Assembly (NCBI GenBank): GCA_964016885.1
Contig: CAXHJY010000902.1
Location: 1 to 63,573 of the forward strand
Direction: 5' to 3'
Source of the DNA: Eledone cirrhosa
Lineage: Eukaryota
DNA length: 63,573 nucleotides
Part shown: piece by piece, positions 7,821 to 62,845 of the stretch
Position numbering within the stretch: position 1 is the stretch's first letter
How the letters are laid out: every line of letters starts with the position of its first letter
Translations under genes and position numbers: made by a program
The notes under the pieces: model-generated
What the model saw: only the letters and a program-made list of their open reading frames with translations
Told to the model about the DNA's origin: nothing
The model's database searches: none

Positions 7821-8586
7821 TTCTATTCTATTCTAGGGCGAGTAAAATTCCCGAGATGCATGGACGAGTTCTCTTCAGCGGTCTCTGTCCCTCATTATCG
7901 CTGCCATGTCCTGCGTCTCCAACAGACCAGTGTCTGTCCTTAGGGCATCAACATACGTTAACCTTGGTATTCCTCTTCCAGTGTGTCTATGTAGGGGCTC
8001 CCACAGGAGCACTGAGTGCAATGTCAACTCTGGATGTCGGTGAGCATGTCCAGCTAACCTCAGTTTCCTCTGTGTCTCTTTTGAGCTGACTTTTGGGAGG
8101 CTCGAATACAGCTCTGAGTTTTTCATCCTCAGTGTATACTGATTAATGTTCAGAGCCATCCTCAGCATTCTCGTGTAGCACCCATCCACCATCTGAGTGA
8201 GTGTATTGGTCAGTGTCCAAGTCACAGACTCCATTACACCAATGAAGAGGCGGATTTTCAGGTCTTTACGAAGGTCCGACTTCCACACCGATCTCAAACT
8301 GTGGCACGCCGCCCAGGCTTTGCTCTTCCTCTCAACCACATCATCTTCCGTATTCCCCATCTTTTCTCCCAAATACAGGAAGTCCTCAACCAATTCTAGC
8401 GCCTTCCCGCCTACATTAGTGATCCCCTCTGGCTTCTCAACATTCTCTACCAGATATTTTGTTTTAGTATTATTAATTCTCAGCCCCACCCTCATCGACA
8501 CAGTCTCAACCTCCTGCATCAAATCCTCTGCCTCCTTCACTGTATTTGTCCCCAAAACTATGTCGTCAGCAATTTCAGCATCCACT

Positions 8587-8590
<4 letters not shown>
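7821..8590 (-). pseudogene. 5'-truncated RTE-type LINE fragment (reverse transcriptase C-terminal half and 3' end)
   Basis: ORF 7875..8681 has ADDIVL (YADD-equivalent), GLRINNTKTKY, VEDFLYLG, KLRLAGH and GRGIPRLTYVDAL, typical of RTE-clade RT/thumb regions; (TAGAA)n tail at 7821-7835; the ORF N-terminus is just (TA)n; apparent small in-frame deletion near MES-VTWTL. Confidence 0.85.
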
Positions 8591-8645
<55 letters not shown>

Positions 8646-9607
8646 CTTGTCTCCATCCAGTACCCATTTCGGTCTACGCACTATTCTTTCGTTCTGCCTC
8701 TAACATCGACACCACCACCACCAACACCAACACCACCACCACCATCACCACCAACACCAACACCACCACCACCAACAACAACAACACCAACACCACCACC
8801 ATCACCACAACAACCAACACCACCACCACTACCACCAACACCACCACCAACACCACCACTACCAACACCAACACCACCAACAACACCGCCACCAACAAGA
8901 CCTCCTCCAATAACACTAACACCGACACCAACACCAACACACCAACAACACCACCACCACCATCACCACCACCACCACCAACACCACCAACACCACCACC
9001 AACACCACCACCAACACCACCACCAACACCACCACAACCAACAAGACCTCCTCCAATAACACCAACACCAAACACCACCAACACACCACCACCACCAACA
9101 ACAACAACAACACCACCACCACCACCACCACCACCACCACCAACACTCCTCACTTATTGACGTAAAGTTCAGATTACATAAACTCACCAAATTCACTTCT
9201 TTTTCTGCTACTTTTGTTAAGATCACTTAAATATTGATTGTTTTAATTTCTACACTAAATTAGAAATTATAACACAGACACGTGTCTCACCAACACTCTT
9301 ATGACTTGTATTCCTTTCCTAATTCAATCTTAATCATTACTAATACATTAATTACCATAATTGCTTTACTACTTCAATTATTTATTAGCAATTTAGCTTT
9401 TAATTTAAGCTAATTAATAAACACATCAGTATATCATTTAATTAATCTTTCAAGTAGGAATTAGAAAATATTCAACGTATCCTTCCATACTTCCATCCTA
9501 CCATACTCTGGGCTGATCGTCTTATTATAGTTAACAAGGTAATGCATTCAATTGAGTCGCGCTACTCTTCCATGTCCATACACAATAACACTAATATATA
9601 TGAGTAT

Positions 9608-21620: not shown

Positions 21621-21804
21621 GACTATCCGGGAGCTTCCAACAGCAATGGTTGCATTCTTTAAGAGTATGTCAATATTTATTTATAAACTGATCTATATTA
21701 TATTTTATCTGATGAAAGCACACCATAATTTAACTTGGTGTCCTTGAAATATGTATAATGAAATAAATATGGTTTTATAAATATAGTTTCCATTTGTTAA
21801 TATC

Positions 21805-21844: not shown

Positions 21845-21880
21845 TTATTTATTTATTGATATATATATATTTATTTAATA

Positions 21881-22006
21881 TAGAAATGGCTTCTACAGGA
21901 CTAGAACTGTTTAATTCGGGAGAAATCATCTGGAATTCCTTTTTATACTCTGCTATGCATTGAGTACCGTACTTACTGCGGTTACCCCATTGAACCCGGG
22001 ATAAAC
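21881..22006. mobile_element. Diverged fold-back copy of HHR element family A
   Basis: The minus arm carries a degenerate core (CAGAUGA...UAAACAG...CUGUA); the plus arm carries the family A 3' end (actctgctatgcattgagtac...aacccgggataa); in (TA)n. Confidence 0.7.
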
Positions 22007-35892: not shown

Positions 35893-35960
<68 letters not shown>

Positions 35961-35963
<3 letters not shown>

Positions 35964-36104
35964 TGAGATTCTACAGGACTAGAACTGTTTCATTCATTAG
36001 AAATCATAGTCCTGTAGAATCTCATCTATATTAAAACTGTTATACTCTGCTATGTATTGAGTACCTTACTTACTGTGGTTACCTCCGATTCAACCCGGAA
36101 TAAC

Positions 36105-36107
<3 letters not shown>
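35961..36107. mobile_element. HHR element family A, fold-back copy
   Basis: Inverted HHR part (35961-36007) joined to the sense 3' end agtcctgtagaatc...aacccggaataacg; in (TA)n. Confidence 0.8.
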
Positions 36108-36495: not shown

Positions 36496-36504
36496 TAAAC
36501 ACAC

Positions 36505-36538
<34 letters not shown>

Positions 36539-36542
<4 letters not shown>

Positions 36543-36670
36543 CGAAGGAAATGTGGTAAGGAACCAGGTGGACCATAACGCACCAAAATACTCAATACTT
36601 AGGGTAGTAGAGTGGGTAATAGGAACCAGTAAGACCCCGACGGCTGAGCTCAAGCCGTTTCGACGGCTAT
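36539..36670 (-). mobile_element. Element family B
   Basis: Near-exact reverse complement of 41270-41400; between (TA)n tracts. Confidence 0.8.
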
Positions 36671-36708
36671 ATATAAGTGTGTGTGTGTGGATATATATAT
36701 ATATATAT

Positions 36709-36777
<69 letters not shown>

Positions 36778-36778
<1 letters not shown>

Positions 36779-36964
36779 GTTATTCCGGGTTGAATCGGAG
36801 GTAACCACAGTAAGTAAGGTACTCAATACATAGCAGAGTATAACAGTTTTAATATAGATGAGATTCTACAGGACTAGAACTGTTTCATTCATTAGAAATC
36901 ATCAGGATGATTTCTAATGAATGAAACAGTTCTAGTCCTGTAGAATCTCATCTATATTAAAACT
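36778..36964 (-). mobile_element. HHR element family A with an about 120-bp fold-back centred at about 36904
   Basis: Minus-strand CUGAUGA (36905-36899)...GAAACAG...CUGUA; the stem I 5' strand is replaced by the inversion. Confidence 0.8.
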
Positions 36965-40644: not shown

Positions 40645-41056
40645 TCTTTTCACTCTGTCTTAATATCTCCCTTTCTCAGTAATGCTCCCGTTACATTTAT
40701 CTTTCCTTTATTTTCCTTTCCCTTTCGTCTCATTGTCGTTATATTAGTTATTGTTATAATTGTCATTGTCATTGTTGTTGTAGTTGTTATTGTATTGTTG
40801 TTGTTGTTGTTATTGTATTGTTGTTTTTGTTGTTGCTGTTATTGTATTGTTGTTGTTGTTATTATATTGTTGTTTTTGTTGTTGTTGCTGTTATTGTATT
40901 GTTGTTGTTGTTGTTGTTGCTGTTATTGTATTGTTGTCATTGTTGTTGCTGTTACTGCTGCTGCTGTTCTTGTTGACATCATCCATTGCCATGTTTGTTT
41001 TGTTCATTTTATTATCTCCCTTTTGAGGTCACTCTTCACTATTTCACTGCATATCT

Positions 41057-41137
<81 letters not shown>

Positions 41138-41214
41138 ATATTTATTCTCATATACATATACATGCACATACACATAGATATAGAGATACATATACACATA
41201 TAAATAAATATACA

Positions 41215-41247
<33 letters not shown>

Positions 41248-41250
<3 letters not shown>

Positions 41251-41400
41251 AACAAGTAAGACCCAGAATTAGCCGTCGAAACGGCTTGAGCTCAGCCGTC
41301 GGGGTCTTACTTGTTCCTATTACCCACTCTACTACCCTAAGTATTGAGTACTTTGGTGCGTTATGGTCCACCTGGTTCCTTACCACATTTCCTTCGTTAT
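41248..41400 (+). mobile_element. Element family B with a short 5' inversion
   Basis: GAAA 41278-41281, stem III CGGCU/AGCCG with GAGCUC in the loop, GUC 41298-41300; upstream aggaacaagtaagaccc is the inverse of the post-cleavage sequence. Confidence 0.8.
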
Positions 41401-41438
41401 ATATATATATATATATACCAATTATTATTTTAGGTCCC

Positions 41439-41542
<104 letters not shown>

Positions 41543-43989: not shown

Positions 43990-44032
<43 letters not shown>

Positions 44033-44033
<1 letters not shown>

Positions 44034-44121
44034 GTTATTCCGGGTTGAGTCGGCAGATTCCTGATGATTTCTAAAGAATGAAACAGTTCTAGTCCTGTAG
44101 AATCTCATCTATATTAAAACT
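44033..44121 (+). mobile_element. HHR element family A: inverted 3' terminus fused to an intact ribozyme
   Basis: 44033-44053 is the reverse complement of the family 3' end; flanked by (TA)n on both sides. Confidence 0.8.
44055..44105 (+). ncRNA. Type I hammerhead ribozyme (family A)
   Basis: Stem I AGAUUC/GAAUCU; CUGAUGA 44061-44067; stem II U-UUC-uaaa-GAA-U; GAAA 44080-44083; stem III ACAG/CUGU with loop UUCUAGUC; predicted GUA cleavage after 44099. Confidence 0.75.
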
Positions 44122-44136
44122 TATATATATATATAT

Positions 44137-44215
<79 letters not shown>

Positions 44216-62680: not shown

Positions 62681-62845
62681 ATATTAACAAATGGAAACTA
62701 TATTTATAAAACCATATTTATTTTATTATATATATTTCAAGGGCCACCAGAGCTTCATCAGATAAAATATAATATAGGTTAGTTTTATAAATAAATATTG
62801 ACATACCCTTAAAAAATGCAACCATTCTGGCTGGAATCTCGTGGA
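62681..62845 (-). mobile_element. HHR element family D, second copy
   Basis: Reverse complement homologous to 21626-21803; in (TA)n. Confidence 0.8.
62719..62769 (-). ncRNA. Minimal type I hammerhead ribozyme (family D; shortened stem II)
   Basis: Perfect 8-bp stem I UAUUUUAU/AUAAAAUA, CUGAUGA (62761-62755), GAAAU-auau-AUA; stem II is weak. Confidence 0.6.

What the first reader, a model, noticed from the sequence alone, without database searches (positions are those of the whole stretch)
44033..44121. An 89-bp insert that is essentially one complete hammerhead
All core nucleotides are present, with a 6-bp stem I, a 4-bp stem III whose loop contains the CUAG palindrome, and a GUA triplet. 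Stem II has a U-U at its base instead of the usual purine-pyrimidine pair, also seen in the copies at about 36000 and 36890. It is preceded by an inverted copy of the family's own 3' terminus, as in PLE inverted ends. This is the best single candidate for an activity test.
Basis: partly seen in the sequence, partly recalled or inferred. Interest (0 to 1): 0.72.

Follow-up and report, generated by a model that had tools for sequence, protein, structure and literature searches.

The report
Penelope retroelement stub with intact hammerhead
This 89-base insert is a short, likely inert, two-armed copy of the front end of a very abundant Penelope-type jumping gene; its hammerhead motif is real and complete but occurs letter for letter thousands of times in this genome, is predicted to cut only as a pair, and its odd U-U is a known trait of this group.

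Summary
The hammerhead is there as described (44055-44105, cut after 44099) and is not chance. It is not special. The same 51 bases occur 4,304 times in this genome, about 1,100 of them in one 377-kb satellite of 78-bp units. The motif lies just upstream of a 758-codon reverse transcriptase/GIY-YIG frame with Hydra-clade marks. The insert is 21 bases of the inverted 'tail' end joined to positions -1 to +67, set in (TA)n; 61 inserts share this build. Head-to-head pairs always have one tailed and one short arm (22 of 22). Arms pile up at stem I, 30 bases after a TATA box, often with an extra G, and seldom at the cut site (4 of 100), so the template was likely capped, uncut RNA. U10.1-U11.1 stands in 14 of 25 published Hydra families and in an axolotl hammerhead shown to cut. 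The monomer fold is disfavoured and the dimer favoured; the proposed T7 construct is predicted to misfold. The scan has reported this mechanism before on other DNA. New member of a known kind; low interest.

The parts
44000..44032 (.). (TA)n target, left flank; its last TA matches the two template bases beyond the tail end
   Evidence: sequence; template continuation in L106
44033..44053 (-). Short inverted arm: last 21 bases of the 'tail' (element positions +114 to +134, +1 = 44055 equivalent)
   Evidence: 21 of 21 identical to L106; same end in copies at 36105 and 36778
44054..44121 (+). Sense arm: element positions -1 to +67, from the inferred transcription start to the short (tail-less) end
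   Evidence: 68 of 68 identical to L106; short ends cluster here
44055..44105 (+). Complete type I hammerhead motif (stem I 6 bp; stem II U-U plus 3 bp; stem III 3 bp plus A15.1-U16.1)
   Evidence: compensatory stem I changes in sister subfamilies
44061..44067 (+). Core C3-A9 (CUGAUGA)
   Evidence: sequence
44068..44079 (+). Stem II: U10.1 (44068) opposite U11.1 (44079), 3 pairs, variable 4-nt loop
   Evidence: U-U in 301 of 303 contexts, loop varies
44080..44099 (+). GAAA, stem III with 8-nt loop (CUAG at 44089-44092), GUA triplet; predicted cut after 44099
   Evidence: sequence; predicted intermolecular helix III
44122..44137 (.). (TA)n target, right flank
   Evidence: sequence
35957..36105 (.). 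Two-armed stub of the same family; hammerhead incomplete at its 5' side
36778..36964 (.). Two-armed stub of the same family; tailed arm 36778-36907 (-), short arm 36906-36964 (+); stem I incomplete
21874..22004 (.). Older stub of a sister subfamily; two core positions changed

Best explanation
The insert is a promoterless, two-armed stub of a Hydra-clade Penelope-like retroelement, likely made when the element's enzyme cut both strands of a (TA)n repeat and copied the capped, uncut 5' leader of its RNA from two internal start sites; the hammerhead is the family's standard motif and is predicted to cut mainly as a dimer. SHOWN: family membership, link to the RT-GIY-YIG frame, two fixed 3' ends, one tailed plus one short arm per insertion, pile-up of arm 5' ends at stem I, excess G before +1, compensatory change in stem I. 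INFERRED: (1) the RNA starts at the first base of stem I, 30 bases after a TATA box; (2) one cDNA was primed at the tail end (+134) and stopped after 21 bases; (3) the other was primed at the short end (+67) and ran 68 bases to the RNA 5' end, through an uncut hammerhead; (4) the two cDNA ends were joined with at most one shared base; (5) in the parent element, cutting at +45 would remove the capped 45-base leader; it would need a second copy (the downstream pseudo-LTR or another RNA) or the element's protein; (6) this copy has no promoter, lies between self-complementary TA tracts, and likely does nothing.
For: Motif directly upstream of a 758-759-codon frame in 7 of 8 fetched loci (5 intact, 2 with point changes), repeated 4.5-4.8 kb downstream in 3. 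Protein P0002 shows RWR, DKT, CxCX5C and CxxC-E-N-CxH, the Hydra marks listed by Craig 2021, and lines up by eye with Hydra-1_Obim. 15,544 exact matches of stem III plus cut site, control 0. 22 of 22 head-to-head pairs have one tailed and one short arm; two RT start sites bounding the tail were shown in vitro for PAc. Of 100 position-ordered arms anchored at stem III, 41 keep the TATA region and 48 of the other 59 stop at -1 to +10. Of 100 tail-anchored arms, 36 stop at -1 to +10 (3.3 per base) and 4 at +44 to +48, two of these one duplicated locus. G before +1: 1,743, against 385 for A and T together; none of 30 inspected G cases has an intact pseudo-LTR upstream, and one palindrome has the G on both arms. 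TATA at -30 in L083 and L097, -33 in L101. 61 inserts have this short-tail build. Dimer of 44055-44105: intermolecular stem I 0.93, helix III 0.99, -21.2 kcal/mol against 2 x -7.6. Sister subfamilies (4,164 matches) change stem I on both sides and keep U-U.
Against: No RNA evidence for the start site or for cleavage was obtained. Pfam gave no RT hit and only E 0.1 for GIY-YIG, and PDB nothing, so the protein call rests on motifs, an eye comparison and Atlas neighbours. About half of the 30 extra-G cases could take their G from the opposite arm. This insert starts at -1, not +1, and its junction G is templated by the tail arm, so a cap G is not shown for it. The stem I strand is itself near-palindromic, which could bias junctions there. 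A cut RNA would be uncapped and short-lived, so few arms at the cut site do not show that cutting is rare in cells. Stem II is weak in every fold (0.06 or less), and nearest-neighbour energies omit the core's tertiary contacts. Samples are the first 100 matches on one contig.
Confidence: 0.82

Rival explanations
1. The stub arose from a single priming event and fold-back or template switching of one cDNA, or from later deletion inside a longer inverted insertion, rather than from two primings.
For: Junctions use short microhomologies; stem I 5' is near-palindromic; inverted repeats are prone to central deletion (general knowledge).
Against: Fold-back of one cDNA does not predict one tailed and one short outer end in 22 of 22 pairs; deletion does not predict an extra G at +1.
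Confidence: 0.1
2. This copy is a functional, self-standing ribozyme that cuts a host transcript as a monomer, kept by selection.
For: Its stem III (3 bp plus an 8-nt loop) is longer than any Hydra row in Craig File S2, where loops are 1-3 nt; axolotl HHR_Amex2 with U-U cut 22% in 1 h as a monomer.
Against: Zero differences from the family, so no sign of locus-specific selection; no promoter piece; predicted probability of the fold in context about 1e-5; no clear host exon seen in the window's open frames.
Confidence: 0.03
3. The family's hammerhead shape is kept as a protein-binding or promoter-overlapping signal and seldom or never cuts.
For: PAc hammerhead mutants insert normally in vitro, uncut RNA is the main substrate, and no reads ended at the cut site; arms here derive from uncut RNA; stem II is marginal.
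Against: Every core base, the UH triplet and the dimer palindrome are kept across subfamilies while loop II and N7 vary; related metazoan motifs cut as dimers. This rival concerns the family's use of the motif and is compatible with the stub's origin above.
Confidence: 0.25

Closest known systems
Hydra clade of C-terminal EN+ Penelope-like elements, incl. Hydra-1_Obim (Craig et al. 2021, PMC8557442; passages, supplement parts 1-2 of 59 and search hits read)
   Same: Single RT plus C-terminal GIY-YIG frame with RW(K/R), DKT, CxCX5C, CxxC/CxH; (TA)n targets; hammerhead at the pseudo-LTR; inverted 5'-truncated copy; tail at one end; U10.1-U11.1 in 14 of 25 listed families.
   Different: A different family from Hydra-1_Obim (other hammerhead sequence). 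Tail about 67 bases instead of 30-40; unit 4.5-4.8 kb because of microsatellite in the 3' part instead of under 3 kb; loop III 8 nt instead of 1-3 nt.
PAc (Poseidon of Anolis carolinensis; Frangieh et al. 2024, PMC11167929; parts 1-2 of 4 read)
   Same: Two internal RT start sites bounding the tail; AT-rich target, both strands cut; uncut RNA as template; hammerhead just upstream of the tail.
   Different: Other clade; PAc has a minimal hammerhead overlapping the start codon, whereas here the first in-frame ATG is at +182. That paper does not, in the parts read, describe two-armed stubs or a start site at stem I.
Axolotl HHR_Amex2 and metazoan non-LTR retrozymes (Cervera and de la Pena 2020, PMC7229834, passages; Li et al. 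2026 bioRxiv 10.64898/2026.07.22.740005, part 1 of 5 and passages)
   Same: Type I hammerhead with U-U at the base of stem II, weak as monomer, efficient as dimer; tandem hammerhead repeats derived from pseudo-LTRs, like the 78-bp array found here.
   Different: The insert is a single stub, not a tandem unit. The 78-bp array is within the published unit range (51-972 bp) but has about 4,800 units against a published maximum of 300.
Minimal and palindromic-helix-III hammerheads of metazoan PLEs (Cervera and De la Pena 2014, PMC4209133; parts 1-2 of 4 read)
   Same: In pseudo-LTRs, palindromic loop 3, scattered truncated copies, pairs on opposite strands, low activity, dimer mode.
   Different: Those have a long stem II with G10.1-C11.1 and little helix III; this one has a 3-bp stem II with U-U and a full helix III.

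Membership tests
Type I hammerhead ribozyme | Core C3-A9, G12-A14, A15.1-U16.1, H17 in order | tested here: met
Type I hammerhead ribozyme | Three helices, open at stem I, with covariation | tested here: met
   Stem I pairs change on both sides in sister subfamilies; stems II and III hardly vary, so they show no covariation, only variable loops
Type I hammerhead ribozyme | R10.1-Y11.1 pair | tested here: not met
   U-U; a known tolerated variant (PMC3088659 section 8; PMC7229834)
Type I hammerhead ribozyme | Loop I/loop II tertiary contact | tested here: inconclusive
   Loop II varies freely, which argues against a fixed contact; no 3D test
Type I hammerhead ribozyme | Mg-dependent self-cleavage after H17 | not testable with these tools
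   bench assay needed
EN+ Penelope-like element | Single frame with RT and C-terminal GIY-YIG in the parent element | tested here: met
   (motifs read by eye); Atlas neighbours with GIY-YIG and RVT_1; Pfam weak or blank
EN+ Penelope-like element | Partial tandem pseudo-LTR carrying a hammerhead | tested here: met
   L081, L082, L087
EN+ Penelope-like element | Inverted 5'-truncated copy and tail at one end only | tested here: met
   22 of 22 pairs; this insert
Hydra clade | RWK-like, DKT, CxCX5C linker, CxxC and CxH around E and N | tested here: met
   P0002 against the list; RWR instead of RWK
Hydra clade | No CCHH motif in the endonuclease | tested here: inconclusive
   No CxxC between the GIY and YIG positions, but two cysteines 8 residues apart lie there
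Hydra clade | Insertion into (TA)n | tested here: met
Hydra clade | Placement in an RT phylogeny | not tested
   Published reference proteins were seen but not available as tool sequences, so no tree was built
Non-LTR retrozyme | At least two tandem units with complete hammerheads | tested here: not met
   The insert is single. The C28 and C1 arrays of the same motif do meet it

The most novel reading that the evidence does not exclude
The hammerhead is a copy-sensing off-switch at the very start of the element's capped RNA: pairing with a second copy removes the 45-base capped leader, so only uncut RNA is translated and copied. The 377-kb satellite of about 4,800 head-to-tail copies of this same hammerhead, born from one insertion of the family, is transcribed, chops itself into 78-base pieces, and supplies partners that cut the element's RNA in trans: a satellite that silences its parent transposon by catalysis.
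Probability: 0.05. Interest if true: 0.8.

Novelty: new member of a known kind. Interest (0 to 1): 0.22.

Why it matters
The insert itself is ordinary debris. The family is a usable test bed for an open question, what Penelope hammerheads are for: it is young, has intact-looking coding copies, thousands of stubs that mark a likely RNA start at stem I, and a natural tandem array of the same ribozyme for dimer assays. The array is also a traceable case of one retroelement end growing into a large satellite. The start-site and two-arm reading has already come up at other loci in this scan, and I did not find it described in five literature searches; Lunse et al. 2017, which I could not read, may cover hammerheads of this shape.

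Tried and rejected
Rfam at gathering score: no hit in the window. Single-strand folding does not return the hammerhead; not taken as refutation because core contacts are not modelled. Pfam and PDB did not recognise the RT; a weak KDM6 GATA-like hit and caspase hits were rejected as chance. A DNA search with a 67-base tail query returned nothing; replaced by a pattern search. Sequencing runs: no RNA holder listed. Contigs of two runs of unknown kind were laid on L083; they cannot show RNA starts or levels and were used only as a lead to the tandem array. The sigma-70 promoter scan does not apply to an animal genome. An alternative stem II register (bulged U11.1, pairing shifted by one) was rejected: the four loop bases vary while the three pairs stay fixed. 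The idea that the family is non-autonomous was dropped when coding copies were found. Selection on the core inside the 78-bp array: core 2.4% against 3.6% in unpaired positions, one-sided p 0.066, units not independent and the core is A-rich; not supported. Lunse et al. 2017 was not held, and its supplements may bear on U-U and dimer claims; Ruffner 1990 is known only through PMC3088659. Whether the insert lies in a host intron was not settled.

Full report
Observation. The 89 bases lie between two (TA)n tracts. A descriptor scan finds a type I hammerhead at 44055-44105: 6-bp stem I, CUGAUGA, U facing U, 3-bp stem II with a 4-nt loop, GAAA, 3-bp stem III plus A15.1-U16.1, an 8-nt loop holding CUAG, and GUA with the cut after 44099. 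A strict form of the descriptor gives 1 hit in the window and none in 200 block shuffles. Rfam has no hit at gathering score, and the single strand does not fold into the hammerhead (z +0.69). The first 21 bases are the inverted family end. Three other family stubs lie in the window; none has a complete motif. Below, +1 is the first base of stem I (44055).

The family. A 28-base piece over stem III and the cut site matches 15,544 times in the genome, the reversed control never. The whole 51-mer matches 4,304 times; about 1,100 of these are in one array (estimate), leaving about 3,200 dispersed. An endonuclease fragment beside one copy led to long open frames. In 7 of 8 fetched loci the hammerhead lies directly upstream of a 758-759-codon frame (5 intact, 2 with point changes), and in 3 it is repeated 4.5-4.8 kb downstream; the eighth is a broken copy. 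[quoted passage not shown] These are the Hydra-clade marks in Craig et al. 2021 (PMC8557442, passages). It lines up by eye with Hydra-1_Obim, a different family (supplement hits). Pfam and PDB did not name it; Atlas neighbours at 0.96-0.99 carry HTH_animal, GIY-YIG and RVT_1 in part. No tree was built. Both pieces of the insert are identical to L106, a copy that continues towards the coding frame. Earlier notes call the genome octopus-like; I did not test that.

The U-U. It is not a damaged pair. It stands in 301 of 303 contexts in the fetched loci and in 72 and 73 of 73 position-ordered arms. Sister subfamilies (4,164 matches of a pattern that itself requires the two U's) change stem I on both sides and vary loop II and N7; the U-U in sister variants was also seen without that requirement. 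In Craig File S2, 14 of 25 Hydra families show U at both places by my count, two of these rows being identical. Perreault 2011 reports natural U10.1-U11.1 and cites it as the best tolerated mismatch (PMC3088659, section 8). Axolotl HHR_Amex2 has it, cut 22% in an hour as monomer and far better as dimer (PMC7229834, passages). What is a little unusual here is the 8-nt loop III; published Hydra rows have 1-3 nt.

How the insert was made. Arms have two kinds of outer end: short (about +57 to +67) or tailed (+134 to +138). Among 100 position-ordered matches, 49 are short, 48 tailed and 3 run on into the frame; all 22 head-to-head pairs within 600 bases combine one of each. For PAc, two internal RT starts bound the tail and both target strands are cut and extended (PMC11167929, parts 1-2 of 4). 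Inner ends are not random. Of those 100 arms, 41 keep the upstream TATA region; of the other 59, 48 stop between -1 and +10 and only 3 between -14 and -6. That sample cannot show arms starting at the cut, so I took 100 tail-anchored arms: 28 keep the upstream region, 6 stop at -29 to -2, 36 at -1 to +10, 12 at +11 to +43, 4 at +44 to +48 (two are one duplicated locus), 14 beyond. A TATA box lies at -30 or -33, and the bases around +1 fit the initiator consensus (recalled). G precedes +1 1,743 times, A or T 385 times together, where the template has C. None of 30 inspected G cases has an intact pseudo-LTR upstream; about half could take the G from the opposite arm, the rest not obviously, and one palindrome has it on both arms. 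I infer a capped RNA starting at stem I and copied uncut. In this insert, one cDNA stopped after 21 bases and the other ran 68 bases to -1. Sixty-one inserts, this one included, share the build.

Would it cut? As a monomer, the three stems have predicted probability 1.5e-3 for 44055-44105, 2e-6 for the proposed 44045-44121 and about 1e-5 for the whole insert. Two copies of 44055-44105 are predicted to form the double-hammerhead frame (intermolecular stem I 0.93, helix III 0.99; -21.2 against 2 x -7.6 kcal/mol), though stem II stays weak (0.06). With the leader or the 3' extension, stem I falls to 0.00-0.05. The commonest sister variants give the same dimer. Published PLE hammerheads are slow and dimer-dependent (PMC4209133, parts 1-2 of 4; review PMC6765202, passages), and the PAc one needs the protein. 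I put about 65% on detectable cleavage of a well-chosen dimer and under 5% on any role for this copy, which lacks the promoter. D. virilis Penelope has a TATA-less internal promoter with its start in the upstream pseudo-LTR (PMC2377424, passages), so the TATA arrangement here differs and is untested.

A side finding. Strand-skewed counts and tandem joints in run contigs led to 1,937 head-to-tail junction matches, all on one strand. Twenty 10-kb samples show a satellite of 78-bp hammerhead units from C28:30,496,735 to about 30,873,700, about 4,800 units, that begins with (TA)n and an inverted tailed arm. Divergence in the core (2.4%) is not clearly below that in unpaired positions (3.6%; p 0.066), so it looks like a neutrally grown satellite. 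Published retrozyme units run from 51 to 972 bp with up to 300 repeats (bioRxiv 10.64898/2026.07.22.740005, part 1 of 5 and passages). It is the better natural substrate for a dimer test.

Earlier notes. My start-site idea was noted before the look-up, which returned several notes with the same reading on other DNA (capped start, extra G, one long and one short end). They are not independent support, and they show that the scan has met this mechanism before. No note matched this sequence or the array.

Verdict. Observation confirmed; interpretation partly supported. A new family of a known clade, with a known hammerhead variant, in a known kind of inverted stub. Interest 0.22.

Noticed in passing
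G000:C28:30496735-30873700 (loci L374-L403): A 377-kb satellite of 78-bp head-to-tail units (element positions about -14 to +64), each with this hammerhead; about 128 units per 10 kb, so about 4,800 units. 539 of 2,345 sampled units carry the exact 51-mer; 1,753 of 2,303 keep an intact core. It starts with (TA)n plus an inverted tailed arm, so it grew from one insertion of the family. Higher-order repeats and a repeated interruption show DNA-level growth. Not found among earlier notes by sequence..
   Followed up: partly
G000:C1:350.2 Mb (L372): Eight units of the same 78-bp repeat with the same junction, not in (TA)n: probably a displaced piece of the C28 array.
   Followed up: partly
L403, about 3700 onward: The array ends fused, inside a hammerhead core, to another tandem repeat whose hammerhead also has U-U at the base of stem II; the same motif is scattered in other loci.
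   Followed up: no
window 21701-21765 (+) and 62719-62769 (-): Two hammerheads of a different family with an 8-bp stem I, a long stem II and a palindromic helix III.
   Followed up: no
L083, L097 leader: The reading frame is open from the cut site for 45 codons before the first in-frame ATG at +182; four short upstream ATG frames lie at +10, +20, +24 and +81, three of them inside the part the ribozyme would remove.
   Followed up: no
L097 +113 to +128: A predicted hairpin lies just inside the tail end; the 21-base arm of the insert stops at its 5' foot.
   Followed up: no
window 7878-8699 (-): Open frame that looks like the end of a non-LTR retrotransposon reverse transcriptase, beside (TA)n (label from recall, not tested).
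   Followed up: no
window 36500-36680 and 41039-41458: Stubs of another (TA)n-inserted repeat family that recurs in many fetched loci.
   Followed up: no
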